Source of the DNA: a bacterium
GTDB taxonomy: Bacteria > Patescibacteriota > Minisyncoccia > UBA6257 > 2-01-FULL-56-20
Reading direction: 5' to 3'
Assembly: GCA_021780195.1 (NCBI GenBank)
Contig: JAJXZE010000001.1
Coordinates: forward strand, 1,603 to 65,602
DNA: 64,000 bases
Below, piece by piece: positions 435-47,927 of this stretch. The number at the start of each line of letters is the position of its first letter. Positions within the stretch are counted from its first letter, which is position 1. Made by a program: the position numbers and the translations under genes. Below the pieces are notes generated by a model. It was not told the origin of the DNA and did not search any database. It saw nothing but the letters and a program-made list of their open reading frames with translations.

Positions 435-435
435 A

Positions 436-1212: not shown

Positions 1213-1282
1213 CGCGGATAAATGATGTGCCAAGAGCCGAGCCTCCGTTCCAATAGGCGTGGATTGGAGGTACTATTAAGAT

Positions 1283-2314: not shown

Positions 2315-2316
2315 AT

Positions 2317-3288
2317 ATGCCAAAAATTTCCGTCGTCATTCCTTCTTACAACGGGGAGGCATTCATAGGCAAGGCAATTCGCAGTGTTCTCAATCAGACC
2401 TTCCAAGATTTTGAGGTTCTCGTAGTAGATGATTGTTCGACGGATGGCACCCGGGACGAGGTACGGAGATTACAGAAGAAAGACGCTAGGATCAACTTAA
2501 TAGGATTAAACAAAAATACGGGTGGTCCAGCATCGCCGCGAACGTTAGGATGCAAGGCGGCGCGCGGAGAACTGATTGCATTTATCGATCAAGATGATAT
2601 TTTTTACCCACATTATTTGGAGGCGAAGTTTGATTTTTTTAGAAATCACCCAAATATAAATTTTCTGGCAAGCTGGGCTTGGACGTTTGATCCTGATTCA
2701 AAAAAAATCATCAATTGTGAATATGGCGGACCAGTTAACACCATGATTCGCGCAGAGATTTTAAAAACTATTAATTATTTCGATCCCAGAGAGACCGGTG
2801 TCGATGATTCGGGTATGTGGTACCGTTATCTGGTGCATTATGGCTCGCGTGCAAGTGCTTATGTGGAGTTGGCTCCGTTGACACTATATGCACGCTATGC
2901 TGGGCAAGGTTCGGACGTGGAGAGTAAGGACTTTAAAGAACTAGCAGAGAAGCTCAAGATGATTATTGGTGCATACTATGGTGAAGGAAACGGGGAAGTA
3001 TTCGCCTTTGTTTCTTCTCTCAAGTCGCGCATTGGCAATTTTTTATGCTTGTCGGGCGACGTTAAGCAAGGAAAGGGATATTTTAGGGAGTCCTTAAGAT
3101 TGCGATTCACATTTTTTGCATTTGGATTATTGTTAATGTCTACTTTTGCTCCACGGCATTATAGACGAACTGAGGCCCTCTTGAGAAAATTTCAAAGAAG
3201 CGTGGTGTGGCGCGCGAACGTTTTTATAAAATGGTTAAAGTATCGAAAAAGCTACACAGAAGCCCGGGCCATTTTATCTCAATACTGA
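2317..3288 (+). CDS. glycosyltransferase family 2 (copy 2 of tandem pair)
   Basis: N-terminal 50 aa identical to the preceding GT2; DDCSTDG motif; stop overlaps the next start (TGATGA). Confidence 0.8.
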   Translation: MPKISVVIPSYNGEAFIGKAIRSVLNQTFQDFEVLVVDDCSTDGTRDEVRRLQKKDARINLIGLNKNTGGPASPRTLGCKAARGELIAFIDQDDIFYPHYLEAKFDFFRNHPNINFLASWAWTFDPDSKKIINCEYGGPVNTMIRAEILKTINYFDPRETGVDDSGMWYRYLVHYGSRASAYVELAPLTLYARYAGQGSDVESKDFKELAEKLKMIIGAYYGEGNGEVFAFVSSLKSRIGNFLCLSGDVKQGKGYFRESLRLRFTFFAFGLLLMSTFAPRHYRRTEALLRKFQRSVVWRANVFIKWLKYRKSYTEARAILSQY

Positions 3289-4385
3289 TGAAAGTTTTAT
3301 TGGTTCATGGAACGAATTTGGTGTCGGGTGGAGAGGCGGTTTCCCTTGGGATTGCGAAGACGTTGGGGAAACATAACTTTGTTTTTTTTCTCCCAGGGAA
3401 GCCAGGGGACGAAAATCTCTTCCTGACATTCGGCGTCTATTATCCCTATCGCCGTGGTCTAGTTCGACTGATAAGGCGTCTGATTGAGGTGATGCGCAAA
3501 GAAAAACCTGATATTGTTCATGCACAAGGCTTACGAGCGGCGGCACTAGTAAAGGTGGCTTATTATCTCTCGGGGAAAAAAGGGAAATTTATCTATACCC
3601 TGCATGGAATTCATTTTATACGCAAGCAACTGCCGGCCCGAGTCGCATTTCTCCTTTTTGAGAAGGTTACCAATAAACTGGTTGACGCCCTAGTTTGTGT
3701 CGGGAGGGATGATTTTGAATTGGCGAAGACCCTGCATTTGGTCAGTAGTGAAAAGCTGTTCTTGATAAGGAATGGTATAAATTTGAGAGACGTAAAAAAC
3801 ACTCGTAGTGGGCATGTAGAGACGGGCTCTTGCAAGGAAGATCAAGTTGTCATCACCACGGTCTGCCGGCTCCACCATCAAAAAGATGTCGGGAGTCTTA
3901 TCGAGGCAGTTTCCATGCTTAGGGAAAATGGAGTAATGCTTTTGATAGTTGGTGATGGCCCAGAGCGGTCTCAGTTGGAGATGCTCAGTGCCAGTCTTTG
4001 CTTGGATGGCCGCATCAATTTTCTCGGGAATAGAAGTGACGTTGATCAAATTCTTTCCATAACAGACATTTTTGTATTGTCGACTCACTGGGAAGGCCTC
4101 CCTCTCGTTGTTCTAGAAGCCTGGGCACACAAAAAACCGGTTATAGCTTCCAAGGTACACGGGGTAAAGGACCTCATTAATGATGGAGATAATGGTCTGC
4201 TATTTGATGAGAGTGCCCCACGCGATTTATCAGAAAAAATAATATCGATTTTGAAAAATAGAGATCTAGGGGTGAGGCTTGGAGAGAATGGTTACCATCT
4301 CGTGAAAGCGCAATACGCATTAGAAATAATGGCAAAAAACTATGATGCGTTATATGCAAAAATATTGTGTTCTTCGGATAGGTAA
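3288..4385 (+). CDS. glycosyltransferase family 4 (GT-B fold)
   Basis: MKVLLVHGTNLVSGGE N-terminus and EGLPLVVLEAWAHKKPVIASKVHGVKDLINDGDNGLLF C-terminal GT4 motif; ATG at 3288 chosen rather than the upstream ORF-track extension. Confidence 0.8.
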   Translation: MKVLLVHGTNLVSGGEAVSLGIAKTLGKHNFVFFLPGKPGDENLFLTFGVYYPYRRGLVRLIRRLIEVMRKEKPDIVHAQGLRAAALVKVAYYLSGKKGKFIYTLHGIHFIRKQLPARVAFLLFEKVTNKLVDALVCVGRDDFELAKTLHLVSSEKLFLIRNGINLRDVKNTRSGHVETGSCKEDQVVITTVCRLHHQKDVGSLIEAVSMLRENGVMLLIVGDGPERSQLEMLSASLCLDGRINFLGNRSDVDQILSITDIFVLSTHWEGLPLVVLEAWAHKKPVIASKVHGVKDLINDGDNGLLFDESAPRDLSEKIISILKNRDLGVRLGENGYHLVKAQYALEIMAKNYDALYAKILCSSDR

Positions 4386-5485
4386 TGAAAATTCTTCAGG
4401 TCAATAAACTCTATTCTCCCTGGATCGGCGGGATTGAGACGGTGGCGCAGGATATCGCCGAACATTTTCACGGCAGGGATGGTGCGAGGGTGGTGAATCT
4501 TGTGTGCCAGCCGAGCGGTGCGCGAAAAATCGGGGGAGTGAACGGGGTGCCGACGTATCGCGCGGCGAGTTTTGGAATGGCGTTCGGCATGCCGCTCTCT
4601 CTCGATTTTTTCCGTTTGTTCAAAAAACTTTCCGCGGACGCCGATGTGATTATTCTACACCACCCGTTTCCGATCGCTTTCATCGCGTACCGCCTCTTCG
4701 GGAAGGGGAAAAGAGTGATCGTATGGTATCACTCCGATATCGTGAGGCAAAATATCGCGAAGGCACCGTTTATGCCATTCATCCGCGCCGTGCTTGCCGC
4801 CGCGGAACACATCCTCGTGTCGAATGAAGCCATCATTAAGCATTCCGCCGTCCTAAAAAAGTTTTCCGATAAATGCCGCGTCGTCCGTTTCGGTGTTGAC
4901 CCTGCGAGATTTCGGGAGACAGGCGCGATAGAAAAAGCGGAGGACGAAATAAGGAATGAGTATGGATCGCCGCTCATTCTCTCCGTGGGTCGCCTTGTCT
5001 ATTATAAGGGCTACTCTTATTTGATCGATGCGATAAAGGACGTTCCGGCGCACCTGCTGATCGTCGGGAGCGGGCCCTTACGTGCCGCCCTTAACGCTCA
5101 AATCAGGCGTAATGGCATGGGCGATAAGGTATTTATCGTGGGATCCGTCGACGACCTTGTCCCGTATTATCACGCATGCGACGTCTTTGCGTTGCCCTCG
5201 TGCGAACCTTCCGAGATGTTCGGCATCGTGCAGATTGAGGCCATGGCGTGCGGCAAGCCGGTCGTGAACACCGCACTTCCGACGGGCGTACCCGAAGTAA
5301 GCGTTGACGGGAGAACCGGAAAGACCGTCCCGCCGAAAGATGCCCCCGCACTTGCGGAAGCGCTACGGGAGATTTTATCCAATAAAGACGAGTATGACCG
5401 CTTTTCCGCGAATGCCACAAGGGAAGTTGCGGCGAGATTTACGAAGGAGAAATTTTTTGCCGAGATGGAGCACTATCTCTCCTAG
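4385..5485 (+). CDS. glycosyltransferase family 4
   Basis: MKILQVNKLYSPWIGGIE ... EPSEMFGIVQIEAMACGKPVVNT (EX7E-type GT4 motif). Confidence 0.8.
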   Translation: MKILQVNKLYSPWIGGIETVAQDIAEHFHGRDGARVVNLVCQPSGARKIGGVNGVPTYRAASFGMAFGMPLSLDFFRLFKKLSADADVIILHHPFPIAFIAYRLFGKGKRVIVWYHSDIVRQNIAKAPFMPFIRAVLAAAEHILVSNEAIIKHSAVLKKFSDKCRVVRFGVDPARFRETGAIEKAEDEIRNEYGSPLILSVGRLVYYKGYSYLIDAIKDVPAHLLIVGSGPLRAALNAQIRRNGMGDKVFIVGSVDDLVPYYHACDVFALPSCEPSEMFGIVQIEAMACGKPVVNTALPTGVPEVSVDGRTGKTVPPKDAPALAEALREILSNKDEYDRFSANATREVAARFTKEKFFAEMEHYLS

Positions 5486-7018: not shown

Positions 7019-8362
7019 CTATTCCGGATTCACGAAAAGCGATTTCAGCGTCCGGAGAACGATCGCGAGGTCGAGGATCGGCGAGCGGTGCTTGAGATAA
7101 TAGATGTCGTACCGGAGCTTTTCGCGCACGTCGTCCGTCGTGCGGTCGGCGCGGTGGTTGATCTGCGCCCAGCCGGTCACGCCCGGGAGCGCGAGGAGGC
7201 GCACTTCGTAGAAGGGGACTTCGGCGCGGAGCTTTTCCACGAACTCGGGGCGCTCGGGGCGCGGGCCGACGAAGGAGAGATCGCCGCGCACGATGTTCCA
7301 GAGTTGGGGGAGCTCGTCGAGATGCGAGGTGCGGAGGAAGCGTCCGAAGGCCGTGATGCGCGGGTCGTGTGCGCCGTCCGCCCACCGGGCGCCGGTGCCC
7401 GCTTCGGCATCCGTGCGCATGGTACGGAACTTGTAGAGCGTGAAACGGCGTCCGTGCGCGCCCACGCGCGTCTGGCGGTAGATCGCGGGGCCGCGGGAGG
7501 TGACCGCGACGAGAAGCGCGATCGCGAGCTCGATGGGGAGAAGCGCAACGCCGATCGCGAGCGCGGCCGCGAATTCGATGCCGCGCTTGAACTGGTCATA
7601 GAAGCGTGCGGCGCCTTCGATGTTCTCGAGGAACCAGGTCTCTTCGACTTCGTCGAGCGGTACTTTCCGCATGACGGTTTCGTAGAGCGTTTCCACGTCC
7701 GTGACGGAGATGCCGCGGCCGAAAAGGGCGTAGAGTGCGGGGGCGAGCGCGCGGCGGCGCTTGAGCGCCGCGGGAACCGCAATGAGATTCGCCCGTGTTT
7801 CCGCGACGAGCGCCGCGAGGCGCTTCGGATCGCGCGCGGCTTCATCCTCGGCGAGCCGTGCGACGACCGCGTAGCCGAGCTGGACATTCGCCGTGAGGGT
7901 ATCCTCGATTTCCGCCGCCGCGCCGCCGTCGCCCACGAGGAGCAGGCGGTTCGGCGCCTCTCCCGACGCCGTCATGCGGTTGAAGAAGCGCCGCCAGAGC
8001 GCCTCAATGACGGCGAAGAGCACGAGGAAGATGAAAAGGTTCGTTTTCGGCGCGATGCCGAACGACGGCACGAGATAAAAGAGGAGCGAGGCGATGAGCG
8101 CGTTCGCGACGAGCGCGAGGGAGAGTGTTTTCAGGAAGTCGAGATTGTTGCGGAGGCGGCGGAGGTCGTAGAGGCCGGCGATGTAGAACACAAGGAGCCA
8201 GGGAATGAAGACGATGGTGAAGGGCGCCGCATGGATGTCCACGAACTGGCGCCAGAAGGCGCCATCATAGCGGATGAAGAGCGTGGCGAGGAGCGCGGCG
8301 TAAAGGAGTACGGCGTCGCCCGCAAAGAGGAGGAAAACCTTCAATTTACTGCCGCGGTTCAT
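7019..8362 (-). CDS. undecaprenyl-phosphate sugar phosphotransferase (WbaP/bacterial sugar transferase family, priming enzyme)
   Basis: C-terminal domain PAIYRQTRVGAHGRRFTLYKFRTMRTDAE ... ITAFGRFLRTSHLDELPQLWNIVRGDLSFVGPRPERPEF. Confidence 0.85.
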   Translation of the reverse strand: MNRGSKLKVFLLFAGDAVLLYAALLATLFIRYDGAFWRQFVDIHAAPFTIVFIPWLLVFYIAGLYDLRRLRNNLDFLKTLSLALVANALIASLLFYLVPSFGIAPKTNLFIFLVLFAVIEALWRRFFNRMTASGEAPNRLLLVGDGGAAAEIEDTLTANVQLGYAVVARLAEDEAARDPKRLAALVAETRANLIAVPAALKRRRALAPALYALFGRGISVTDVETLYETVMRKVPLDEVEETWFLENIEGAARFYDQFKRGIEFAAALAIGVALLPIELAIALLVAVTSRGPAIYRQTRVGAHGRRFTLYKFRTMRTDAEAGTGARWADGAHDPRITAFGRFLRTSHLDELPQLWNIVRGDLSFVGPRPERPEFVEKLRAEVPFYEVRLLALPGVTGWAQINHRADRTTDDVREKLRYDIYYLKHRSPILDLAIVLRTLKSLFVNPE

Positions 8363-8384: not shown

Positions 8385-9143
8385 TTACCGCCCGGGGGAA
8401 TTCTTTTCCGGCGGTCCCGGCGGAACATATCCTTCGGTATAGGGACGGTGCGTGCGGATGATCCAGAGGAAGTTGAGTCCGTAGGTAATATACAATTTGA
8501 AGATGCCGTCCTTCGCGAGGCGCCTCCCCGAGCCGAGCACGAAGAATCCCATGTCGAATTTTACCTTGCCGACCTTGCTCAGGCGCCGCGCGGTGTCCGT
8601 GTCGTCGCCGTGGAACACAAGCGTCGTGTCGAGGCCGCCGATTTCCGTGAGGGCGTCGCGGCGGGCGACGAGGTTTGCGCCGAGCGCGGCGTACCCGAGG
8701 ATACGGTACGTGATCGGCGCAAATATCCACCAAAGGCCTTCGGCGAGGATCCGCGTGCGGAGGGAGAGGTCATAATAGCGGAAGGGGCCGCTCAGGCAGA
8801 CGAGCTTGGGGTTCGCCGCGAATTCCTTCTGGACTTTGGCGGCCCAGCCGTGGGGGATCCTTGCGTCGGCATCGAGATAGGCGACGAGCTCGCCGCGGGA
8901 TTCCCGGAAGCCGCGCTCGCGCGCCCAGTTCGTCCCGCGCCGCGTTTCTTTGACCACCCGCACACCGGGGATGACGGCCGCTTTTGCGGCGGTTCCGTCC
9001 GTCGAGGCATTGTCCACCACGATTATTTCGAGGAAGTCGGACGTCCAGTGCTTCCGGATGCTTTCGATGCAGGCCTCGATGTACCCCTCTTCGTTATAAG
9101 CCGGAATGACGAAACTGATGGTCATCAGCGGATAGGCTGCCAT
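8385..9143 (-). CDS. glycosyltransferase family 2
   Basis: MTISFVIPAYNEEGYIEACIESI ... YLDADA motifs. Confidence 0.75.
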   Translation of the reverse strand: MAAYPLMTISFVIPAYNEEGYIEACIESIRKHWTSDFLEIIVVDNASTDGTAAKAAVIPGVRVVKETRRGTNWARERGFRESRGELVAYLDADARIPHGWAAKVQKEFAANPKLVCLSGPFRYYDLSLRTRILAEGLWWIFAPITYRILGYAALGANLVARRDALTEIGGLDTTLVFHGDDTDTARRLSKVGKVKFDMGFFVLGSGRRLAKDGIFKLYITYGLNFLWIIRTHRPYTEGYVPPGPPEKNSPGR

Positions 9144-9856
9144 CCGGCATCGGCGGACTTTTTGAATATCCAGACGGAAAGACCGTTCTTAATCCAGCGA
9201 TAGAGCGTTTTCCACGCTCCAAGCTGGTGAAATCGCCGCCCCGAATGGAGCACGCGTAGCTTCCATGTAATATGCGTCTTCCCCGTCGTGCCGAGGCGGC
9301 GGAAGAAATCAATGTCCTCACCGGCGGGCAGGCGCTCGCTGAAACCGCCCACCCTGCGAAACGCATCCGCTTTTACCATTTGGAATTTCCCTGCCGCGAT
9401 GCCAACACGGAAGACGTTGTTCAGGAGCACGAACCAGATATTCATAAGTTCGAAGATGAACCAGTCGCTGGCGGTACGGAATCGGGGATCTACCTCGATG
9501 CGCACCGTGAGGCCCACGAGGCGGGGATTTTTTTCAAAAAAAGATAGCGCCGTTGTGAAAAAAGCGTCGGGATCGAGGATCTCGTCGCCGGAGTCGAGGA
9601 ATACCAGATATTCTCCCACGGCGGCCTTCGCGCCGTTATTGCGGCCGTGGGAAACTCCAGGCGTGTCCCAACGTGCGGTCTGGATCGCTTTGTCGGCACA
9701 GCGCTTTGCAATCGCAAAGGTCCCATCCTTGCTCCGGCTGTCCGAAACGATCACCTCGTGGGGGATCGTGAGAGCGGCAAACTGGCGCACCGTCGCTTCG
9801 ACGGTCTTTTCCTCGTTATAGACCGGGATGATGATGGAGAGAAGAGGGGCCGGCAT
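9125..9856 (-). CDS. glycosyltransferase family 2
   Basis: LSIIIPVYNEEKTVEATVRQ ... VSDSRSKDGT ... FLDSGDE motifs; 19-nt overlap with the downstream GT2. Confidence 0.75.
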   Translation of the reverse strand: MPAPLLSIIIPVYNEEKTVEATVRQFAALTIPHEVIVSDSRSKDGTFAIAKRCADKAIQTARWDTPGVSHGRNNGAKAAVGEYLVFLDSGDEILDPDAFFTTALSFFEKNPRLVGLTVRIEVDPRFRTASDWFIFELMNIWFVLLNNVFRVGIAAGKFQMVKADAFRRVGGFSERLPAGEDIDFFRRLGTTGKTHITWKLRVLHSGRRFHQLGAWKTLYRWIKNGLSVWIFKKSADAGWQPIR

Positions 9857-38151: not shown

Positions 38152-39981
38152 TTGTATAATAGGGGTATGGAAAAGAAAATACGCGGAACGTGGGTTGCGG
38201 GAGTTCTGACGGCGGTAGCCGCGGTGGCAGTAGCGGCGGTTGCGGCAGGGGTTCTGTTTTTCCCCGCCGCGCCCGCCTATGCTATGACGCCGGCCCTCTC
38301 TCTTTCGACGAGCGGCGGCACGACGGTGCAGGTGACCGTAAACGGGGACCCGAACGCGAGCGTGGCGCTCTATTATTATGCCGCGGGCGCCGCGGGAATA
38401 CAGAGCGCCGTGCTCGGCACGACGAACGCGAACGGATATTTCTCGGCTCCGGTCACGGCGTCGTCCTACGGGATTCTCGCCGGAAACGCGGTGTATGTCG
38501 TGGTGAACGGCCAGCAATCGTCTTCCCAGTCGTGGCCCGCGCCCACGGGAACGCCGACCCTGAGCCAGGCGAGCGTGACGGTCGGCCTCGGCCAGAAAAT
38601 AACGGTCTATTCGCAGGGGAGCTCCGCGCCGGTGTATCTCGCGAGCAACTCCAACCCCTCCGCCGCCGCCGTCCAGGCGAACGGAACGCAGGTCACGGTG
38701 ACCGCAAATCAGACGGGAAGCACGAACGCTTCCATCTGCTATACGGGCACGGCCGCGAGTTGCGCCAACCTCTACGTCGTCGTTACGGCGACGGGCGCGC
38801 TCTCCTTCAGTCAGAACAACTTTACCATTCCCGTAGGCCAGAGCACGGCCGTCACGGTGACGGGCGGCAGCGGTACCTACTCCGTCACGAATAACTCGAA
38901 CCCGGCGGTCGCCGCCGCGGTGCTTTCCGGCAGCGTGGTGACGGTCACTCCCGCGACGATGGGCACCACGAACGTGACGGTGTGCGACACGGCGGGCAAC
39001 TGCGGCACGATTTACGCGACGGTCGGCAGCGGCACGGGCACGGGCACCATTTACTTCAGCACGCCGAACCCGTCGCTCACCCTCGGCCAGATCACGACGG
39101 TCACCGCGTACGGCGGCTCGAACTACTACGTGACCGGCAACTCGAATCCGTCGGTCGCCTCGCAGACGCTTTCCGGCTCCACGCTCACAATCTCCGGTCT
39201 TGCGAACGGGACGACGGCCATCAATGTTTGTTCCGCATCGAACGGCTGCGCCACGCTCACCGTTACGGTCGGCGGTTCGACGAGCGGCACCGTGTCCTTC
39301 GGCGTCACGAACCCGACCGTCATCGTCGGGCAGAGCACGAACATCGCACTGACCGGCAACTCGAGCTTCTATCTTTCCTCGAACAGCAACGCAAATATCG
39401 TCACTCCTTCGGTGAACGGCATGACACTCTCGCTCTACGGCGTGAATCCGGGGACGAGTTCGGTGGTGCTTTGCGCGACGGGAAGCGGGGCCTGCGGCAC
39501 GCTCAGCGTGACCGTGGTGGCGGCCTCGGGCGGCACGGCGGGGAGCGGGAGTGCGGCAGGAACCGGTACGGCCTCAAACGCGGCGCTTCTCTCCGCGATC
39601 CAGTCGATGCAGACACAGCTCGCGCAACTTGTGACGCAGATCCAGACCATGGCGTCGACCCTGACGCAGGCGGCCGCGAACCTGACGGGGAGCTCGGGGG
39701 GTACGGCGGCTTCAGGTACGGGCGCGGGAAGCGCGGCATCTTCCGGTTCGGCGACCACGAGCACGGTCTTCACGGGATTCCTGAGCGTGGGCTCGCAGAA
39801 CGCGCAGGTCGCGGCGCTCCAGCAGTATCTTGCGAAGAAGGGTTTCTATAACGGCGCGGTTACCGGCTACTACGGTTCGCTCACCGCGTCCGCGGTGAAG
39901 AGCTACCAAGCGGCGCACGGCATCAATGCCGCGGGCTACGTCGGCCCTTCGACCCGCGCGGCACTGAACGCAGGGGAGTAG
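38152..39981 (+). CDS. secreted/anchored protein with about five Big_2-like Ig repeats and a C-terminal peptidoglycan-binding (PG_binding_1) domain
   Basis: N-terminal TM/signal; repeated roughly 85-aa units (NSNPxVA...G..VTVT...GTTNVTVCDTAGNCGT.YATV); C-terminus ALQQYLAKKGFYNGAVTGYYGSLTASAVKSYQAAHGINAAGYVGPSTRAAL. Confidence 0.6.
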   Translation: MYNRGMEKKIRGTWVAGVLTAVAAVAVAAVAAGVLFFPAAPAYAMTPALSLSTSGGTTVQVTVNGDPNASVALYYYAAGAAGIQSAVLGTTNANGYFSAPVTASSYGILAGNAVYVVVNGQQSSSQSWPAPTGTPTLSQASVTVGLGQKITVYSQGSSAPVYLASNSNPSAAAVQANGTQVTVTANQTGSTNASICYTGTAASCANLYVVVTATGALSFSQNNFTIPVGQSTAVTVTGGSGTYSVTNNSNPAVAAAVLSGSVVTVTPATMGTTNVTVCDTAGNCGTIYATVGSGTGTGTIYFSTPNPSLTLGQITTVTAYGGSNYYVTGNSNPSVASQTLSGSTLTISGLANGTTAINVCSASNGCATLTVTVGGSTSGTVSFGVTNPTVIVGQSTNIALTGNSSFYLSSNSNANIVTPSVNGMTLSLYGVNPGTSSVVLCATGSGACGTLSVTVVAASGGTAGSGSAAGTGTASNAALLSAIQSMQTQLAQLVTQIQTMASTLTQAAANLTGSSGGTAASGTGAGSAASSGSATTSTVFTGFLSVGSQNAQVAALQQYLAKKGFYNGAVTGYYGSLTASAVKSYQAAHGINAAGYVGPSTRAALNAGE

Positions 39982-43067: not shown

Positions 43068-43140
43068 GGCCACGTGGCGAAGAAGCTAACGCGGCGGTCT
43101 GCAAAACCGCTATACATGGGTGCGAATCCCATCGTGGCCT
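43068..43140 (+). tRNA. tRNA-Cys (anticodon GCA)
   Basis: GGCCACG/CGTGGCC acceptor, anticodon arm GCGGT-CTGCAAA-ACCGC, T-arm ATGGG-TGCGAAT-CCCAT, discriminator T; D-loop lacks GG. Confidence 0.65.
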
Positions 43141-43193
43141 CACGAAACAAGTTGTGCTATCGTACGGAAGTATTGCGCGCCACGCGCGATCGG

Positions 43194-43277
43194 GCCCGGG
43201 TGGCGGAATCGGTGTACGCAGAGGACTTAAAATCCTTAACCCGAAAGGGTTTGTGGGTTCGAATCCCACCCCGGGCA
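43194..43277 (+). tRNA. tRNA-Leu (anticodon TAA), class II
   Basis: GCCCGGG/CCCGGGC acceptor, anticodon arm GAGGA-CTTAAAA-TCCTT, long variable arm, GTGGG-TTCGAAT-CCCAC, discriminator A. Confidence 0.85.
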
Positions 43278-43416
43278 CAAAAAAGAAATGAAAAATGTCT
43301 TCCGGCGAATCAGCTTCGCGCCCCGGAAGGCGTTTTTTATTTTTCTCCTGCGCCGCCTAAAAAAAGTTATGCACAGATTTCAAAAATCCATTTTGCTATA
43401 CTGAAAGAAAATAAAT

Positions 43417-43545
43417 ATGCGAAGAACATTTCGCATATTCCCCAAAGGTCGAAACACAACCATCACTGAAATGAAGAAGAAAGCTGCAAAGAAGACCGCG
43501 AAGAAGAAGACGACGAAGAAGGCCGCGAAGAAGCGCCGCAAATAG
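43417..43545 (+). CDS. possible small Lys/Ala-rich basic protein (histone-H1-like repeats), 42 aa
   Basis: MRRTFRIFPKGRNTTITEMKKKAAKKTAKKKTTKKAAKKRRK, followed by a strong intrinsic terminator; not in the ORF track because it is below the length cutoff. Confidence 0.3.
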   Translation: MRRTFRIFPKGRNTTITEMKKKAAKKTAKKKTTKKAAKKRRK

Positions 43546-43565
43546 TTCCGATCGTATTCTTGCAG

Positions 43566-43598
43566 AACCCGCCCTCAAGGCGGGTTTTGTGTTTATCC
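43566..43598 (+). terminator. rho-independent terminator (AACCCGCC-ctcaa-GGCGGGTT plus T-run)
   Basis: agaacccgccctcaaggcgggttttgtgttt. Confidence 0.55.
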
Positions 43599-43623
43599 GG
43601 CCGATGTTTGCTATAATAAACCC

Positions 43624-45990
43624 ATGAAATCCCGAAGCACCGCACTCCCCGTCCTCGCGAGTATCATCGCCGCCGCCGTCCTCTCGGTCGCTCTTCCCGT
43701 GGCCTTCGCCGCTCTTACCTTCACCGGCACGAGCGTCTCCGGCGACGGCAACGTCGCGATCGACGGCTCCGGAACCATCGCGGTCGGCACGTCGAGCGCC
43801 ACCGGAATCACGATTGGAAAATCGGGAATCACGACCACGTTTCCTGGAGCGGTGGGCGTCGCGGGAAATGTGACCGCGGCGAAGTACTACGGCGACGGTT
43901 CGTCGCTTACGGGGGTCGGCACCGCATCCGTAGGATGCCAGACGGCGTCCTCGCTCGGTTTTGCGCTGAACGGTACGGATGAGACCGCGAAGCTCCAGTC
44001 GGTGCTCAATACTTTTTACGCGGCGGGCGGCGGTTGCCTATATATTGACAATGGAAAGACGCTCCGCGTGGACGGCCAGATCGTCATGCCGTATGCATCG
44101 AGCTCGCCCTGGACGATGCCGCCGATCAGGATCACGGGCAATTCTTCCGGGATCGGGAGCGCGGATGCGCTTCCCTCGGTGCCTCCCGCGGGATCGACGC
44201 TCGATCTCCGCTATGCGGGCAATCGTATCGTCTCGCTTGGGCAAGGTACGCTCGAGATCGATCATCTGACCATCGTGAACCGGGGGACAAGTTGCGGCAC
44301 GTTCATGTACAGCACTTTGACCAATATGCGGATCCACGACGATTCGTTTTTCGGGGCGTACGGAGGCGCTTCGGCCTGCGACGACGTGTGGGTGGCGGGC
44401 GCGGCAGTCGCGAATGCCACCATTCAGGGGAACGCCAGCGATTATTTCCAGGGCTATGCGAGCGCCATCAGGGATAATTTTGCCGATCAGATCAGGACGC
44501 TCGTGCGCGGCCAGGCGGCGTTCAATTCCATCCCGATCGTGAACAATACGATCTGGACCAGGTCCGGCCGCGGCCCGACGAACGATGCCGCGATCGAGAT
44601 CGAGGGAGGAACTATGGGCGGCTCCATCTTCTATAACGCAAACAACTACATTGCCGGCAACCTGATCGAGATGCTCGGCTACAACAATGCCATTTATCTT
44701 TCGAACACTGCGGCAAATACGCTGATTGGAAACAGTTTCTGGGACAATTCGAGCGCCTATGCCTACTGTTCCGGTTCGGGGGCGGGAAGCAACATGGTGT
44801 TCGGTTCCGGGTCGTTTTGCCCGGGATGGAATCCTTCCGGCGGCATCCAGCTTACCGGTGCGACGGACACGATCGACCAGAAGGTGCTCTTCACCGCCGT
44901 GCCCCAGTTTCGCTACGGTCTCTATTTCGGCATTGATACCACGCGTGCACTCAGTTCGGCTGCGGGAAATTCTTCCGTGCTCGCGGCCGCAAGCGGAACG
45001 CTCGCGAGCGGCGACCTCGTCTCAATTGATGCGAACGGGAACTTTGTCGATTCGGGGCTCCTTGCTTCCTCGATCGGCGGCGGAGTGAGTACCGGCACCG
45101 CGGGACAGCTCGCATATTATGCCGCGGGCGGAACGACGGTAAGCGGGGTGACCGGTTTGGCGCACGGCATCGTGATCGCGGAGGGAAGCGGTGCGCCGAC
45201 GACAACCGTGGGCGCCGCGGACACGGTGCTTTTGGGGAACGGCGCCTCGCTCGACCCCGCATTCACCTCCATTCCCTCCTGTCCCGATTCCGGAGGCAAT
45301 CACCTGAACTACAGCACGACCACGCATACCTTTGCCTGCGGTACGACCGGCGGTACGGTGGGGAGCGTCGGATTTTCCGGCATTACTGGCGGCACCAACA
45401 CGAGCGCCGCAATGGTAGTGGGCTCCGGCGCATCGCTTGCTCCCTCGGGAAGCGGCACGGTGAGCGCGAATCAGGTGAACGGTGCGGTGCTCCCCACCTC
45501 GACGGGCGTGCTTGGCACGAATGCCAGCGGCCAACTCGTGGCGGGGACGGTGAGCACGCTGATCGATAATCAGGGGCCGCAGTCCGCAGTCACCGCCACG
45601 GGAGGAGATCAGCAGGTGTATGCAACGACGCTCTCAAGCGGTATCCCTGCGGGTAAGTGTATCAGGGTGACCGCGGCATGGACCAATGCCTCGACGAGCG
45701 GGTCTGTGTATGATGTGCTGCGCTTTGGGGGAAGCGGCTATATGTATCTGAACACGCTTGCAAATAACGGCACGTATGTGGGAAGCGCGCTTATCTGCAA
45801 CAACCCCGGTGTGCAGAATGCTCAGCAGGCGATCTCGCTTGGTACGGGAATGGGAGGGCAGTACTTTAATTACGGGGTAAATGCGGCAAGCGAGAATACC
45901 GCTTCGAGTATCGTGGTTAAGTTGACGCTCAATTCCGGTGCGGGAAGCACTTTCACGCCGCTTTCATGGCTCGTGGAGAGCGTGAATTAG
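43624..45990 (+). CDS. secreted glycine-rich protein with tail-fibre-like N-terminal motif and right-handed beta-helix-like region
   Basis: Signal peptide; TGITIGKSGITTTFPGAVGVAGNVTAAKYYGDGSSLTGV (tail-fibre collar-like motif); a region with pectate-lyase/beta-helix character; long Gly/Ser/Thr-rich C-terminal half. Confidence 0.5.
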   Translation: MKSRSTALPVLASIIAAAVLSVALPVAFAALTFTGTSVSGDGNVAIDGSGTIAVGTSSATGITIGKSGITTTFPGAVGVAGNVTAAKYYGDGSSLTGVGTASVGCQTASSLGFALNGTDETAKLQSVLNTFYAAGGGCLYIDNGKTLRVDGQIVMPYASSSPWTMPPIRITGNSSGIGSADALPSVPPAGSTLDLRYAGNRIVSLGQGTLEIDHLTIVNRGTSCGTFMYSTLTNMRIHDDSFFGAYGGASACDDVWVAGAAVANATIQGNASDYFQGYASAIRDNFADQIRTLVRGQAAFNSIPIVNNTIWTRSGRGPTNDAAIEIEGGTMGGSIFYNANNYIAGNLIEMLGYNNAIYLSNTAANTLIGNSFWDNSSAYAYCSGSGAGSNMVFGSGSFCPGWNPSGGIQLTGATDTIDQKVLFTAVPQFRYGLYFGIDTTRALSSAAGNSSVLAAASGTLASGDLVSIDANGNFVDSGLLASSIGGGVSTGTAGQLAYYAAGGTTVSGVTGLAHGIVIAEGSGAPTTTVGAADTVLLGNGASLDPAFTSIPSCPDSGGNHLNYSTTTHTFACGTTGGTVGSVGFSGITGGTNTSAAMVVGSGASLAPSGSGTVSANQVNGAVLPTSTGVLGTNASGQLVAGTVSTLIDNQGPQSAVTATGGDQQVYATTLSSGIPAGKCIRVTAAWTNASTSGSVYDVLRFGGSGYMYLNTLANNGTYVGSALICNNPGVQNAQQAISLGTGMGGQYFNYGVNAASENTASSIVVKLTLNSGAGSTFTPLSWLVESVN

Positions 45991-46031
45991 CGGGTTGCCG
46001 GCAGTCCCCGGAATAGGGCGAGGATGGGAAT

Positions 46032-47234
46032 ATGATCATGAGCAAAACCGTAAAGTTTTTCTGCGCCGGGACGGCTGTTTTGGCGGTGGCGGGGCTATCG
46101 GGAGGAGCGGTCTTTGCCGCGGCGCTTTCCTACACGGCTCCCGCGACGATAACACTCACTTCTCCCGCCGCGACACTGACGGTCGCTTCCGGCTCGGTTG
46201 CTGATACGCTGATCGTGAATGCTGGGAATATCGTGGCCACGCTTTCGTCCGCGACGGGAGGGAGTTTTATCGTATCGTCCGCGAGTGGCAATCTTTCCGC
46301 GACCGCAAGCGGAGGAGGAGGCACGGTGACGACGACGTGCTCGTCCGGCGCGGCCACCTTAACGATTGCGCAGAGTACGGGGAGTGCCTCGTACACCATT
46401 GCGCCCGATAGCGGCACCTGTACGCCCACCGGCTCCTCTTCCTCGTCGACCACGGCGGCGCCCGTTGCCACAGGCGGCGGCACACCGCCGCCGCTCACGA
46501 TGCGGATCAATGACGGCGCCGCAACCACCGCGAACGCGAACGTGATCGTCGCGATCACGGGTCCATCCGCAACGGGACTCCTCCTTTCGGGCACTCCCGA
46601 TTTTGCAAGTACGACCCCCGCTTCTTTCACCTCATCCAACGCGTGGAATCTCTGCGCCGCGGGCGATACGGCCGGCACGAACGTTGCGCCGAGCGGCGCG
46701 GGCGGTGCGGCGTCCGGTTCTGCGGCGTGTGCGCCGGGACTGCGTACGGTCTATGCCCGCGTATATACCTTACCGGGCGTTTTCCAGGCCATCTCGGCGA
46801 GCATCGATTATGAGCCCGCGCCGGCGGCCGCGTCTTCCACGACCTCAACGCCTCCCACGGTGGGTGCTCCTGCATCCAACGCGCTCATCGCGAGGATCGA
46901 GGCACTGAAGGCTCAGCTTGCAGCGCTTGTCGCGCTCGCCGGCGGATCACGGGGTGCCGCGGCGCCTGGCGCGGCAATTGCGCCCGCCTATTTTTTCACC
47001 CGCGACCTTGCGATGTGGATGACGGGAGCAGACGTAAATGAACTGCAGAAGTTTCTTGTGGCGCAGGCGGCCGGTTCCGCCGCCGCGGCGCTTGCGCGGC
47101 ACGGCCTTACGAATAATTTCGGTCCGCTGACCCGCGCCGCGCTTGCGGAGTTCCAGGCAAAGGCAGGCATCAAGCCCGCGCGCGGCTACTTCGGCTCCGT
47201 CACGCGGGCCTGGATCGGCGCGCATCGACAATAA
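46032..47234 (+). CDS. secreted Thr/Ser/Ala-rich protein with C-terminal peptidoglycan-binding domain
   Basis: Signal peptide; low-complexity TSA-rich middle; C-terminal ELQKFLVAQAAG...LTNNFGPLTRAALAEFQAKAGIKPARGYFGSVTRAWI (PG_binding_1-like). Confidence 0.55.
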   Translation: MIMSKTVKFFCAGTAVLAVAGLSGGAVFAAALSYTAPATITLTSPAATLTVASGSVADTLIVNAGNIVATLSSATGGSFIVSSASGNLSATASGGGGTVTTTCSSGAATLTIAQSTGSASYTIAPDSGTCTPTGSSSSSTTAAPVATGGGTPPPLTMRINDGAATTANANVIVAITGPSATGLLLSGTPDFASTTPASFTSSNAWNLCAAGDTAGTNVAPSGAGGAASGSAACAPGLRTVYARVYTLPGVFQAISASIDYEPAPAAASSTTSTPPTVGAPASNALIARIEALKAQLAALVALAGGSRGAAAPGAAIAPAYFFTRDLAMWMTGADVNELQKFLVAQAAGSAAAALARHGLTNNFGPLTRAALAEFQAKAGIKPARGYFGSVTRAWIGAHRQ

Positions 47235-47235
47235 T

Positions 47236-47838
47236 ATGAAGGAATCACTACGCTTCGAGCGGAAGGATGAGATCGTGCTGGTGGACAGTATAATGTCCGT
47301 CGAGGCCGCGCGTGCGCAGAATCCGCATCTTCCGTGCCCGGAAAAGATATTGGAACAGCAGGAGGTGCTTTTTGAGCGCTATCTCACGCCCGACGGGAAA
47401 CTGCACGAGGGACAGATCGTCGTCCATCGTGAACTTGCGGAGGACGTAACGCGCCTCTTCGAGCGTATCCGTGCCGAAGGATTTCCCGTTGCTTCCGTAA
47501 TCCCGCTTGCCGACCGAAAATTCAAATGGGACGACGAGCAATCAATGATGCGGAATAATACGTCGGGGTTCAACTACCGCCCGATCGCTGGAACGAACCG
47601 CCTTTCGAGGCATGCGGAGGGAAGGGCCATCGATATCAATCCATGGTGGAATCCGATGGTGAGAACCGTCGTGCCGGGCGAGCGCGTCATCGTGGAACCC
47701 GAGGGCGCGCATTATGATCCGCGTGTGCCGGGGACCATTGTCCGGGGAGATTTCATCACCGAATTTTTGAAACAGCGCGGCTGGAAATGGGGCGGGGAGT
47801 GGACCTCGCTGAAGGACTATCAGCACTTCGAGAAATAG
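47236..47838 (+). CDS. M15-family zinc D-Ala-D-Ala dipeptidase/carboxypeptidase (VanX/DdpX-like)
   Basis: SRHAEGRAIDIN (SxHxxGxAxD) and DYQHFE motifs; about 200 aa, no signal peptide. Confidence 0.7.
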   Translation: MKESLRFERKDEIVLVDSIMSVEAARAQNPHLPCPEKILEQQEVLFERYLTPDGKLHEGQIVVHRELAEDVTRLFERIRAEGFPVASVIPLADRKFKWDDEQSMMRNNTSGFNYRPIAGTNRLSRHAEGRAIDINPWWNPMVRTVVPGERVIVEPEGAHYDPRVPGTIVRGDFITEFLKQRGWKWGGEWTSLKDYQHFEK

Positions 47839-47844
47839 GAGTGG

Positions 47845-47927
47845 TGCCCAGGGCGGGAGTCGAACCCGCACGACCTTGCGATCAAAGGATTTTGAGTCCT
47901 TCGTGTCTGCCATTCCACCACCTGGGC
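47845..47927 (-). tRNA. tRNA-Leu (anticodon CAA), class II; CCA encoded (47842..47844)
   Basis: Reverse complement: GCCCAGG TG GTG..CAC G AAGGA-CTCAAAA-TCCTT, long variable arm, GCGGG-TTCGACT-CCCGC, CCTGGGC, A, CCA. Confidence 0.85.

What the first reader, a model, noticed from the sequence alone, without database searches (positions are those of the whole stretch)
43417..47927. Surface block bounded by tRNAs: small basic peptide, tail-fibre/beta-helix-like secreted protein, peptidoglycan-binding secreted protein and VanX-like dipeptidase
The block sits between tRNA-Leu(TAA) and tRNA-Leu(CAA). It holds:
- a 42-codon Lys/Ala-rich ORF with its own terminator;
- a 788-aa secreted protein with an N-terminal motif (YYGDGSSLTGV) characteristic of tail-fibre/tailspike proteins and a beta-helix-like region;
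- a secreted protein with a PG_binding_1 domain;
- an M15 dipeptidase.

Inference: this is either a degraded prophage tail/lysis remnant inserted at a tRNA, or a dedicated surface attachment and cell-wall remodelling module. The latter would be particularly interesting if the organism is an episymbiont that attaches to host cells.
Basis: partly seen in the sequence, partly recalled or inferred. Interest (0 to 1): 0.55.

Follow-up and report, generated by a model that had tools for sequence, protein, structure and literature searches.

The report
Phage-like surface fibre operon in CPR bacterium
A tiny uncultured bacterium (Paceibacteria/CPR) carries, in a swap-prone slot between two tRNA genes, an operon for an exported fibre protein built from phage tailspike parts, a cell-wall-binding partner protein and a cell-wall peptidase; it looks like borrowed phage hardware used on the cell surface, not a dead prophage.

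Summary
In detail: all four ORFs and both tRNA-Leu genes are at the stated coordinates.

**788-aa protein.** It has a signal peptide, a ~70-aa N-module, a confidently modelled right-handed beta-helix, fibre repeats and a TNF/C1q-like tip. The beta-helix (aa 104-400) is 50-62% identical to proteins in phage tail modules. It keeps the family's near-invariant acidic residues.

**Setting.**
- There is no integrase, att repeat or other phage gene.
- The three genes are packed as an operon behind their own promoter-like box.
- Relatives keep the frame IF-2-RbfA-tRNA-Cys-tRNA-Leu>[cargo]<tRNA-Leu-ParA, but the cargo differs each time. The block is therefore accessory cargo, not core.

**Conserved pair.** The fibre gene plus the PG_binding_1 gene recurs on two other contigs. 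The fibre's N-module tracks the partner's N-domain while the fibre heads swap.

- The GDGSxLT motif is not a family signature (2 of 157 relatives).
- The peptidase is M15_4 (LAS type), not VanX, and lacks an export signal.
- The 42-codon ORF is an orphan of doubtful coding status.

**Best reading.** A phage-derived adhesin/depolymerase fibre displayed on a peptidoglycan-bound partner. It is a new variant of a known kind (compare Bdellovibrio MAT fibres and Pantoea WceF).

The parts
43068..43141 (+). tRNA-Cys(GCA), part of the conserved left frame
   Evidence: ARAGORN and Rfam. It holds the same position in relatives L125-L128.
43194..43278 (+). tRNA-Leu(TAA), left boundary of the variable slot; its 3' end faces the cargo
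   Evidence: Conserved in L125-L128.
43394..43402 (+). Extended -10 promoter-like box TGCTATACT upstream of the small ORF
   Evidence: Sequence read. TGCTATAMT occurs only twice in the 64 kb, against 0.18 expected.
43417..43545 (+). 42-codon Lys/Ala-rich ORF (alternative start ATG 43471 gives 24 codons); orphan, coding status unresolved
   Evidence: ORF listed. The ATG 43417 lies in a 10-bp hairpin at 43414-43439 (z -6.8). There is no family hit below E 0.04 and no homologue in the fetched loci.
43562..43594 (+). Intrinsic terminator of the small transcript
   Evidence: 12-bp stem, -22.8 kcal/mol, z -4.15, followed by UUGUGUUU.
43609..43617 (+). Extended -10 promoter-like box TGCTATAAT. It ends 6 nt before the ATG of the 788-aa gene, so the mRNA would be leaderless or near-leaderless.
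43624..45990 (+). 788-aa exported modular fibre/tailspike-like protein
   Evidence: ORF. The identical protein occurs in three assemblies. 1109 relatives at E<=1e-3.
43624..43710 (+). Signal peptide (aa 1-29, predicted cleavage AFA|A)
   Evidence: Sequence plus a hydrophobicity heuristic.
43711..43923 (+). N-module (aa 30-100). aa 26-80 are 78% identical to P0015. Contains GDGSSLTG at aa 90-97.
43933..44823 (+). Right-handed parallel beta-helix (aa 104-400), PF12708-type by transitive homology
   Evidence: pLDDT ~90. Foldseek against PDB and BFVD. 19 of 78 relatives hit PF12708 and 24 of 78 hit the tailspike PHROG. The conserved residues D194, E211, D254, E349 and D374 are retained.
44959..45528 (+). 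Gly/Ser/Thr-rich fibre repeat modules (aa 446-635), found in up to 8 copies in large relatives
   Evidence: phmmer domain mapping; up to 9 stretches per protein in the exhaustive search.
45553..45987 (+). C-terminal beta-sandwich tip (aa 644-788), TNF/C1q-like
46032..47234 (+). 400-aa exported partner protein: signal peptide, N-domain (aa ~30-126), Ig-like 'RINDGA' middle domain, coiled coil, PG_binding_1
   Evidence: GAGGA Shine-Dalgarno, with a 41-nt gap and no terminator after the 788-aa gene. Homologous partners follow the fibre genes in L129 and L131.
47022..47213 (+). PG_binding_1 domain (aa 331-394)
   Evidence: Pfam E 3.8e-5, 24.2 bits against cut-off 23. 59% identical to the L129 partner's domain.
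47236..47838 (+). 200-aa M15_4 (LAS) zinc peptidase without an export signal; translationally coupled (TAA-T-ATG)
   Evidence: Pfam E 7e-19. Junction sequence. Motifs SRHAEGRAIDINP and DYQHFE are conserved across 17 relatives. Only a C-terminal motif matches the LysB4 and Ply500 endolysins.
47842..47927 (-). tRNA-Leu(CAA), right boundary of the slot, 3 nt from the M15 stop codon
   Evidence: Conserved in L125, L126 and L128.

Best explanation
**What it is.**
- The block is accessory cargo in a hypervariable slot between two convergent tRNA-Leu genes of a Paceibacteria (CPR) chromosome.
- It consists of an orphan mini-transcript plus a three-gene operon.

**The three genes.**
- Gene 1 encodes a Sec-exported modular fibre.
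  - It has a short N-module and a pectate-lyase-type right-handed beta-helix of phage receptor-binding/depolymerase ancestry that keeps the family's conserved acidic residues.
  - These are followed by Gly-rich fibre repeats and a TNF/C1q-like tip.
- Gene 2 encodes an exported protein that ends in a peptidoglycan-binding domain.
- Gene 3 encodes an M15 cell-wall-type peptidase.

**Most likely mechanism (inferred).**
- The fibre is displayed on the cell surface.
- It is docked by its N-module to the N-domain of the peptidoglycan-bound partner.
- There it binds, and probably cleaves, a surface polysaccharide of another cell (or of its own envelope). This is phage adsorption hardware put to cellular use.
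- The peptidase assists locally in wall remodelling, or has a separate cytoplasmic role.

**Shown.**
- The gene structures, the folds, the phage affinity of the beta-helix and the non-core status of the block.
- The conservation of the pair, and the co-variation of the two N-terminal modules.

**Inferred.**
- Surface display, docking, trimerisation, enzymatic activity and the target.
For: **Fold.**
- The beta-helix has pLDDT ~90.
- It matches GH91, GH28, AlgE4 and the Sf6, HK620 and APK14 tailspikes, as well as phage EPS depolymerases.

**Phage ancestry.**
- P0002 (62% identity) lies between a P22-type portal and coat gene.
- P0006 (50%) follows baseplate J/wedge genes.
- P0004 (55%) follows an SU10 adaptor.
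- 24 of 78 relatives hit a tailspike PHROG and 19 of 78 hit PF12708.

**Likely activity.**
- D254, E349 and D374 are 94-98% conserved in 153 family segments and are retained here.

**Tip domain.**

**Not a prophage.**
- The flanks are IF-2/RbfA and ParA/ParB/RelA.
- There are no att repeats and no integrase.
- There is no hit in 50,697 deposited phage genomes.

**Accessory cargo.**
- The same tRNA frame in L125, L126 and L128 holds three different cargos.
- The L128 cargo is another PG_binding_1 surface protein.
- GC3 is 0.69-0.73 in the block against 0.78-0.83 in the flanks.

**Operon.**
- The intergenic gaps are 41 nt and 1 nt, behind a promoter-like box.

**Conserved pair and co-variation.**
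- Window against L131:
  - fibre N-module 78% identical (E 1e-25);
  - partner N-domain 49% identical (E 9e-30);
  - fibre heads unrelated (E 4).
- Window against L129:
  - heads 46% identical (E 8e-54);
  - the first ~58 aa of the fibres do not align (the alignment starts at aa 59);
  - partner N-domains unrelated (E 0.42).
Against: - The 788-aa protein itself reaches no Pfam, PHROG or NCBIfam threshold. Family assignment is transitive and structural.
- Signal peptides were judged by heuristic only.
- Signal-peptide-like N-termini also occur on the phage-module relatives, so export does not by itself argue for a cellular role.
- The pair conservation rests on three contigs. One of them (L131) is 2.3 kb and holds only a partial partner gene.
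- The M15 peptidase lacks an export signal, and its relatives never neighbour fibre or partner genes. Its place in the module is therefore weak.
- The N-module and fibre repeats are modelled at pLDDT <50.
- No trimer or complex prediction was possible.
- The lifestyle of the organism is unknown.
Confidence: 0.55

Rival explanations
1. Degraded prophage remnant. A tail-fibre/tailspike gene plus pieces of a lysis cassette (cell-wall-binding domain and M15 endolysin) were left behind after a temperate phage integrated at a tRNA-Leu gene and then decayed. The genes have no cellular role.
For: - The closest beta-helix relatives sit in phage tail modules.
- Both the 400-aa protein and the M15 protein hit endolysin PHROGs (E 2e-5 and 5e-6).
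- The M15 protein's only matches among solved structures are phage endolysins.
- The slot is tRNA-bounded and holds a serine-recombinase element in relative L126.
- GC3 is about 0.1 lower than in the flanks.
- The M15 protein has no signal peptide, as expected of a holin-dependent endolysin.
Against: - There is no integrase, att repeat, holin or any other phage gene.
- All three ORFs are intact and tightly coupled, with a promoter-like box.
- The 400-aa protein has a signal peptide and no viral relatives.
- The PHROG hits are confined to the PG_binding and M15 catalytic motifs.
- M15 relatives at 31-46% identity are mostly exported cellular enzymes on non-phage contigs.
- The fibre/partner pair recurs without phage structural genes.
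Confidence: 0.12
2. A stand-alone secreted polysaccharide-degrading enzyme. It would act like Pantoea WceF or a soluble depolymerase, either trimming the organism's own exopolysaccharide or releasing sugars for uptake. The PG-binding protein and the M15 peptidase would be ordinary, functionally unrelated cell-wall maintenance genes that happen to be adjacent.
For: - The fold and the conserved acidic residues fit a glycanase or lyase.
- WceF shows that chromosomal exported tailspike-fold glycosidases exist (PMC7949094).
- Most family members carry signal peptides.
- M15 relatives are not linked to fibre genes.
- PG_binding_1 surface proteins are common in this genome and its relatives.
Against: - The fibre-like repeats and the TNF/C1q-like tip are typical of adhesive fibres and not of soluble enzymes.
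- The partner gene follows the fibre gene in three independent contigs, with co-varying N-terminal modules.
- There are no polysaccharide-synthesis genes beside the block.
Confidence: 0.2
3. An envelope-breaching toolkit aimed at a host cell. The beta-helix depolymerase clears the host capsule or EPS. The PG-binding protein and the M15 peptidase bind and cut the host's peptidoglycan to open a feeding junction, by analogy with phage tailspikes plus virion-associated lysins.
For: - The depolymerase-type beta-helix, PG_binding_1 and an intact LAS peptidase are combined in one operon.
- Cultivated Patescibacteria are obligate episymbionts or parasites that breach host envelopes (PMC11880426; PMC11623550, abstract).
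Against: - The M15 protein has no export signal.
- M15 is absent from the two other fibre/partner loci.
- The PG_binding_1 + coiled-coil design is shared by other surface proteins of this lineage, which suggests anchoring to the cell's own wall.
- The lifestyle of this organism is unknown.
Confidence: 0.13

Closest known systems
Bdellovibrio bacteriovorus MAT (mosaic adhesive trimer) fibres (PMC10769870)
   Same: - Cell-encoded, signal-peptide-bearing, phage-tail-fibre-like proteins.
- A conserved N-terminal domain is thought to dock on the producer's surface.
- They are used by a bacterium that attacks other bacteria.
   Different: - No sequence relatedness was shown; the 788-aa protein matches no PDB chain at E<=1.
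- The N-module here is ~70 aa, against ~130 aa in MATs.
- The body here is a PF12708-type depolymerase beta-helix and not an intertwined beta-prism fibre.
- A candidate anchor partner is encoded next door, whereas the MAT anchor is unknown.
- The organism is a monoderm-type CPR bacterium.
Pantoea stewartii WceF (PMC7949094)
   Same: - Chromosomal and exported.
- Right-handed beta-helix with a phage tailspike fold.
- Glycosidase acting on a surface polysaccharide.
- Proposed to have been acquired from phages.
   Different: - WceF has a Tat signal and a P22-type head domain.
- It lies inside an EPS synthesis cluster and is conserved in its genus.
- The protein here has a Sec-type signal and lies in a variable tRNA slot.
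- It has fibre repeats, a TNF-like tip and a PG-binding partner.
Phage tailspike / receptor-binding depolymerases (P22, Sf6, HK620, Acinetobacter APK14 gp49; Pfam PF12708; PHROG 2234)
   Same: - The beta-helix fold.
- Homology at 50-62% identity to proteins in phage tail modules.
- A modular N-anchor/head/tip design with module swapping.
   Different: - It is not encoded in a virion module.
- It shows no hit to any virion-attachment domain, and the protein itself reaches no PHROG or Pfam threshold.
- It has no relative in 50,697 deposited phage genomes.
Streptococcus pneumoniae PfbA (PDB 3zpp; PMC3718772)
   Same: - A wall-attached surface beta-helix adhesin of a monoderm bacterium.
- The family profile hits its N-terminal cap region (E 4.5e-5).
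   Different: - PfbA is covalently anchored through its 'cell wall surface anchor' (sortase-type) region on the same polypeptide. This point is from general knowledge and was not tested here.
- Here the anchoring function would be supplied by a separate PG_binding_1 protein.
Phage L-alanyl-D-glutamate endolysins of the LAS/M15 type (Ply500, PDB 2vo9; LysB4, PDB 6akv)
   Same: The M15 protein shares the C-terminal GWKWGG-W-x-KDY-HFE zinc-ligand motif (E ~1e-4) and the SxHxxGxAxD motif.
   Different: - Similarity is limited to ~30 residues.
- There is no cell-wall-binding domain on the same chain.
- Its full-length relatives are cellular, mostly exported enzymes.

Membership tests
Pectate-lyase-like right-handed beta-helix superfamily / Pfam PF12708 (Pect-lyase_RHGA_epim) | Right-handed parallel beta-helix fold | tested here: met
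   AF2 pLDDT ~90 for aa 104-400. Foldseek E 2e-5 to 1e-3 against GH91, AlgE4, GH28 and tailspikes, and 6e-7 to 1e-3 against phage depolymerases.
Pectate-lyase-like right-handed beta-helix superfamily / Pfam PF12708 (Pect-lyase_RHGA_epim) | Direct match to the Pfam model above its gathering score | tested here: not met
   No Pfam family at E<=1 for the 788-aa protein. Only transitive support exists: 19 of 78 relatives hit PF12708, and the family profile hits the cap motif of AlgE, pectin lyase and PfbA.
Phage tailspike / receptor-binding protein | Encoded within a virion tail/baseplate module | tested here: not met
   The neighbours are tRNAs, IF-2/RbfA and ParA/ParB. By contrast, relatives P0002, P0004 and P0006 do lie in tail modules.
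Phage tailspike / receptor-binding protein | Homology to phage RBP depolymerase domains | tested here: met
   50-62% identity over aa ~92-320 to the phage-module proteins. 24 of 78 relatives hit phrog_2234 'tail spike'.
Phage tailspike / receptor-binding protein | Homotrimeric assembly | not testable with these tools
   Only single-chain prediction was available.
Prophage / integrative element | Integrase or recombinase, att direct repeats, and other phage or mobility genes | tested here: not met
   No such genes between the tRNAs. No partial-tRNA or other bounding direct repeats; the only long pair is the two tRNA-Leu genes themselves.
Prophage / integrative element | Atypical composition relative to the host genome | tested here: inconclusive
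   GC is 0.57-0.65, similar to the flanks. GC3 is 0.69-0.73 against 0.78-0.83, and the RSCU correlation is 0.63-0.84.
Bdellovibrio MAT fibre superfamily | Conserved ~130-aa beta-rich N-terminal domain directly after the signal peptide | not tested
   No MAT N-domain sequence or structure was available. The N-module here is ~70 aa and modelled at pLDDT <50.
Bdellovibrio MAT fibre superfamily | Variable adhesive C-terminal tip (TNF-like, lectin, S74) | tested here: inconclusive
PG_binding_1 (PF01471) | Match above the gathering score | tested here: met
   24.2 bits against cut-off 23, E 3.8e-5, aa 331-394. 59% identical to the L129 partner's domain, whose protein scores E 3.4e-17 for the family.
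Peptidase M15 (LAS zinc peptidases), subfamily M15_4 (PF13539) | Pfam match plus the H-x6-D and C-terminal His zinc ligands | tested here: met
   E 7e-19. SRHAEGRAID and DYQHFE are conserved in an 18-sequence alignment.
VanX D-Ala-D-Ala dipeptidase (PF01427) | Match to the VanX family model | tested here: not met
   Only PF13539 is reported at E<=1. No NCBIfam equivalog was found.
Diversity-generating retroelement target | Reverse transcriptase plus a template/variable repeat pair | tested here: not met
   No such repeat involves the block in the 64-kb window. L129 does carry a DGR, but it targets two other small genes.

The most novel reading that the evidence does not exclude
**Proposal.**
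- Paceibacteria display exchangeable, phage-derived adhesin/depolymerase fibres on a 'plug-and-socket' system.
- A peptidoglycan-bound socket protein (signal peptide, N-domain, Ig-like domain, coiled coil, PG_binding_1) holds a fibre by a matching short N-module.
- The fibre heads (PF12708 beta-helix, K1-lyase-type and others) are swapped by recombination.
- Whole pairs are exchanged at a tRNA-Leu/tRNA-Leu hotspot.
- This would determine which host cell surface the episymbiont recognises.

**Significance.**
- It would be a pilus-independent host-recognition device in CPR bacteria.
- It would supply the anchor partner that is still unknown for the analogous Bdellovibrio MAT fibres.
Probability: 0.2. 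Interest if true: 0.7.

Novelty: new variant of a known kind. Interest (0 to 1): 0.45.

Why it matters
- How ultrasmall CPR/Patescibacteria recognise and hold on to host cells is largely unknown. In the papers read here, experimental work points to type IV pili (PMC11623550, PMC11880426).
- A chromosomal, exported protein built from phage receptor-binding parts is a concrete, testable candidate for a second recognition system. It is paired with a wall-binding partner whose N-domain co-varies with the fibre's N-module.
- The locus also shows how such specificity genes could be traded. They sit in a tRNA-flanked slot whose content differs in every relative examined.
- If the fibre is only a secreted glycanase, or a decaying phage gene, the finding is ordinary.

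Tried and rejected
1. **IF-2 anchor in genome contigs.** The best loci were only ~40% identical, so the scan was useless for synteny. It was replaced by a protein search plus context look-ups.
2. **Word-index search with the C-terminal half.** Only 3 hits. The exhaustive search was far more informative.
3. **Viral-contig scans.**
   - The 400-aa protein and the beta-helix segment found nothing.
   - Alignment A1 was too divergent to use as a query.
   - These scans need exact 8-mers, so a negative result is weak.
4. **tblastn of the 788-aa protein against 50,697 GenBank phages.** No match.
5. **M15 as a synteny anchor in metagenomes.** 37 loci at 31-46% identity, none with fibre or partner neighbours. 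M15 is therefore not a conserved part of the module.
6. **DGR hypothesis.** Rejected for the window.
7. **att-site / partial-tRNA search.** Negative.
8. **TGCTATAMT as a genome-wide promoter motif.** It occurs only at the two sites in this block, so it cannot be called a native consensus.
9. **Rfam on the block.** Only the tRNAs and sub-threshold terminator look-alikes.
10. **Paralogy of the upstream 604-aa PG_binding_1 protein with the 400-aa protein.** No significant similarity; the overall design is the same.
11. **Sequence search of the 788-aa and 400-aa proteins against PDB.** No hits.

Full report
**1. Observation**

ARAGORN and Rfam place tRNA-Cys at 43068-43141, tRNA-Leu(TAA) at 43194-43278 (+) and tRNA-Leu(CAA) at 47842-47927 (-). 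The two tRNA-Leu genes are convergent, so both 3' ends face the block.

- 42 codons at 43417-43545
- 788 aa at 43624-45990
- 400 aa at 46032-47234
- an M15 ORF whose gene-caller start is ATG 47236, giving 200 aa

Pfam gives PG_binding_1 at aa 331-394 of the 400-aa protein (E 3.8e-5, just above the cut-off) and Peptidase_M15_4 for the last gene (E 7e-19). The 788-aa protein hits nothing in Pfam, PHROGs or NCBIfam.

The window is a contig of MAG GCA_027352685.1. Its IF-2 is 65-71% identical to proteins that sources label Paceibacterota, Minisyncoccia or Patescibacteria. The organism is therefore a CPR bacterium with unusually high GC (0.59).

**2. The 788-aa protein**

The N-terminus is a textbook signal peptide (MKSRS, a 23-residue hydrophobic stretch, then AFA|A).

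AlphaFold2 with a 15-sequence alignment models aa 104-400 at pLDDT ~90 as stacked beta-rungs.
- Foldseek against PDB returns right-handed beta-helix carbohydrate enzymes: GH91 inulin fructotransferase (2.4e-5), AlgE4 and GH28 enzymes.
- It also returns phage tailspikes: APK14 gp49, Sf6, HK620 and Fri1 gp49.
- Against predicted viral structures it returns phage 'pectate lyase superfamily' proteins, EPS depolymerases and tailspikes (6e-7 to 1e-3).

An exhaustive phmmer search of 1.84 billion representatives finds 1109 relatives and shows the protein is modular.
- The beta-helix (aa ~100-400) is shared by hundreds of proteins.
- The aa 446-635 region consists of repeat units that occur up to 8 times in 1400-2200-aa proteins.
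- The aa ~640-788 region is a separate C-terminal domain shared with P0003, P0128 and P0159.

Family assignment is transitive. Of 78 relatives, 19 hit Pfam PF12708 and 24 hit the tailspike PHROG 2234. A family profile matches solved structures only at the beta-helix cap motif, in AlgE epimerases, pectin lyase, carrageenase and PfbA.

In 153 aligned family segments the acidic residues are strongly conserved: D194 (90%), E211 (83%), D254 (94%), E349 (98%) and D374 (98%). Y278 and Y353 are also conserved. The window protein keeps all of them. This fits an active glycanase or lyase but does not prove one.

However, GDG[SGA]xL[TS] occurs in only 2 of 157 relatives, so it is not a signature of this family.

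**3. Where the relatives live**

| Relative | Identity in the beta-helix | Context |
|---|---|---|
| P0002 | 62% | between a P22-type portal and coat gene |
| P0006 | 50% | directly after baseplate J/wedge genes |
| P0004 | 55% | after an SU10-type adaptor and two large tail proteins |
| P0013 | 30% | ICE-like region (TrwB-like, Replic_Relax, S26, RT) of a 1.09-Mb contig; also carries Peptidase_S74 |

So the domain is of phage receptor-binding-protein stock and travels on mobile elements.

One oddity remains unexplained. At least 91 of 160 family members begin with signal-peptide-like N-termini, and these include the three phage-module proteins. A signal peptide therefore does not separate cellular copies from viral ones in this family.

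No relative exists in 50,697 deposited phage genomes.

**4. Is the block a prophage?**

The evidence is against it.
- The flanks are housekeeping genes: IF-2 and RbfA on the left, ParA, ParB, RelA, TopA and DprA on the right.
- Between the tRNAs there is no integrase, holin or structural gene.
- No direct repeats or partial tRNA copies bound the block.
- The window holds no DGR repeat pair involving the block.
- GC is like the flanks.
- GC3 is modestly lower, at 0.69-0.73 against 0.78-0.83.

**5. Synteny in relatives**

Four relatives (IF-2 68-70% identical) keep tRNA-Ser(GCT), IF-2, RbfA, tRNA-Cys and tRNA-Leu(TAA) together. Three of them also keep the convergent tRNA-Leu(CAA)-ParA-ParB. The content between the two tRNA-Leu genes differs every time.

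| Locus | Cargo in the slot |
|---|---|
| L125 | a 187-aa hydrolase (0.64 kb) |
| L126 | a 7.7-kb element with a large serine recombinase, an HTH protein, an Mrr nuclease and a TPR protein |
| L128 | a 1498-aa exported Laminin_G/Big_7/3xFN3 protein ending in PG_binding_1 |
| Window | the present trio |

None of the relatives has a homologue of the 788-aa, 400-aa or M15 genes. The block is thus accessory cargo in a hypervariable slot. In at least one relative that slot receives an integrative element, and in another it also carries a wall-anchored surface protein.

**6. Operon structure**

- An extended -10-like box, TGCTATAAT, ends 6 nt before the ATG of the 788-aa gene. The mRNA would be leaderless or nearly so.
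- The 788-to-400 gap is 41 nt, with a GAGGA Shine-Dalgarno and no terminator.
- The 400-aa stop and the M15 start are separated by one base (TAA-T-ATG).
- The M15 stop lies 3 nt from the tRNA.
- A near-identical box (TGCTATACT) precedes the small ORF. The pattern occurs nowhere else in the 64 kb.

**7. A conserved fibre-partner pair**

- **L129.** P0003 is the relative with the most similar overall architecture. It shares a 45% identical beta-helix, the repeats, the C-terminal domain and the GDGSALT motif. It is followed by a 468-aa exported protein that shares the 'RIN(D/G)GA' Ig-like middle domain (28% identity). That protein also shares the PG_binding_1 domain (59% identity, two copies) with the window's 400-aa protein.
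- **L131.** P0015 shares only the N-module with the 788-aa protein (78% over aa 26-80, E 1e-25). It ends in a K1-capsule-lyase C-terminal domain. Three nucleotides later comes an ORF whose first 126 residues are 49% identical (E 9e-30) to the N-terminus of the 400-aa protein.

The pairwise tests give this pattern:
- When the fibre N-modules match (window and L131), the partner N-domains match, even though the fibre heads are unrelated (E 4).
- When the heads match (window and L129, E 8e-54), the first ~58 residues of the fibres do not align and the partner N-domains are unrelated (E 0.42).

With n=3 this is only suggestive. It is nonetheless what a docking interaction between fibre N-module and partner N-domain predicts. 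It also mirrors the modular logic of phage tail fibres.

**8. The M15 peptidase**

- The zinc-ligand motifs (SRHAEGRAIDINP and DYQHFE) are intact and conserved in 17 metagenomic relatives at 31-46% identity.
- Most of those relatives carry a signal peptide or a lipoprotein box. The window's copy does not.
- None of the relatives neighbours a fibre or partner gene.
- The only matches among solved structures are phage L-Ala-D-Glu endolysins, and only over ~30 C-terminal residues.
- The VanX family is not matched.

The link of this gene to the module rests only on translational coupling in this genome.

**9. The small ORF**

- The terminator is real.
- The ATG at 43417 is sequestered in a 10-bp hairpin (z -6.8).
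- An alternative ATG at 43471 would give 24 codons, without a Shine-Dalgarno sequence.
- The ORF has no homologue in any library or in 1.75 Mb of fetched loci.

It may be a small basic peptide or a ~180-nt non-coding transcript. This remains unresolved.

**10. Interpretation**

The best-supported reading is a horizontally acquired surface module. It consists of a Sec-exported fibre built from phage receptor-binding parts and a peptidoglycan-binding partner that probably anchors it.

Shown:
- the architecture, the folds and the phage affinity of the beta-helix
- the accessory status of the block
- the conservation of the pair and the co-variation of its N-terminal modules

Inferred:
- display on the cell surface
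- trimerisation
- docking to the partner
- glycan binding or cleavage
- any role in host attachment

The closest known systems by design are the Bdellovibrio MAT fibres (PMC10769870) and Pantoea WceF (PMC7949094). Membership in either family was not demonstrated.

The prophage-remnant reading keeps some support: phage ancestry, endolysin-like neighbours, the tRNA location and the GC3 shift. It fails every direct test for a prophage.

**11. Verdict**

This is a real and reasonably interesting locus. It is a new variant of a known kind, namely cellular exaptation of phage tailspike and fibre modules. Its one potentially new feature is an adjacent, co-varying, wall-binding partner in a tRNA-flanked exchange slot of a CPR genome.

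Noticed in passing
window 1-4500: A low-GC island (GC 0.44-0.46 against 0.59 for the window; GC3 0.43-0.46). It holds a 258-aa ORF (436-1212) and two tandem paralogous ORFs (1283-2314 and 2317-3288). By their sequence motifs I read these as glycosyltransferase-2-like; this was not confirmed with a family search. The two paralogues share a 154-nt, 99% identical N-terminal segment (1332-1485 and 2318-2471). The region looks like a foreign surface-glycosylation island with recent gene conversion or duplication.
   Followed up: partly
L129 7458-10201: A textbook diversity-generating retroelement next to the fibre/partner pair. 120-nt variable repeats lie at the 3' ends of two small genes (7775-7894 and 8699-8818). 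A template copy lies at 9207-9326, just upstream of a reverse transcriptase (9695 onward; PHROG E 1.6e-49). It does not target the fibre gene.
   Followed up: partly
L126 11819-19800: In a relative, the same tRNA-Leu/tRNA-Leu slot holds a ~7.7-kb element with a 582-aa large serine recombinase that abuts (as called, overlaps) the tRNA-Cys and tRNA-Leu(TAA) genes. The element also carries an HTH protein, an Mrr-type nuclease and a TPR protein. This is direct evidence that the slot is an integration hotspot.
   Followed up: partly
L128 12427-16923: The same slot in another relative carries a 1498-aa exported Laminin_G_3/Big_7/3xfn3 protein. It ends with a coiled coil plus PG_binding_1, the same anchoring design as the window's 400-aa and 604-aa proteins.
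   Followed up: yes
window 38167-39981: A 604-aa exported or membrane-anchored protein with repeats matching the Pfam 'pilus formation protein N-terminal region' (T2SS-T3SS_pil_N, E 4e-11), a coiled coil and PG_binding_1 (E 7e-17). It is not detectably homologous to the 400-aa protein but has the same design. Wall-bound surface proteins seem common in this genome.
   Followed up: partly
L004 8001-10655; L005 8001-10616; L132 7230-9758: Tailspike-like proteins encoded inside phage tail modules (P0002, P0006, P0004) begin with signal-peptide-like N-termini. This is unusual for virion proteins and remains unexplained.
   Followed up: no
window 43414-43439 and 43609-43623: The start codon of the 42-codon ORF is buried in a 10-bp hairpin (z -6.8). 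The 788-aa gene has a TGCTATAAT box ending 6 nt before its ATG and no Shine-Dalgarno sequence, which suggests a leaderless mRNA.
   Followed up: partly
window 29906-29947 (within gyrB, 28169-30268): GyrB carries a Lys/Ala-rich low-complexity insertion (…[23 protein letters not shown]…). Its DNA is 71% identical to the Lys-rich ORF at 43486-43527, probably because of shared composition and not homology.
   Followed up: no
L131 2-364 (-): Upstream of the P0015 fibre gene is the N-terminus of what I read, from the sequence alone, as an XerC/D-type tyrosine recombinase (MPESEIQKLFHDYLNYLEIEKGRS…). Whether it is housekeeping or part of a mobile element is unknown, because the contig is only 2.3 kb.
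   Followed up: no
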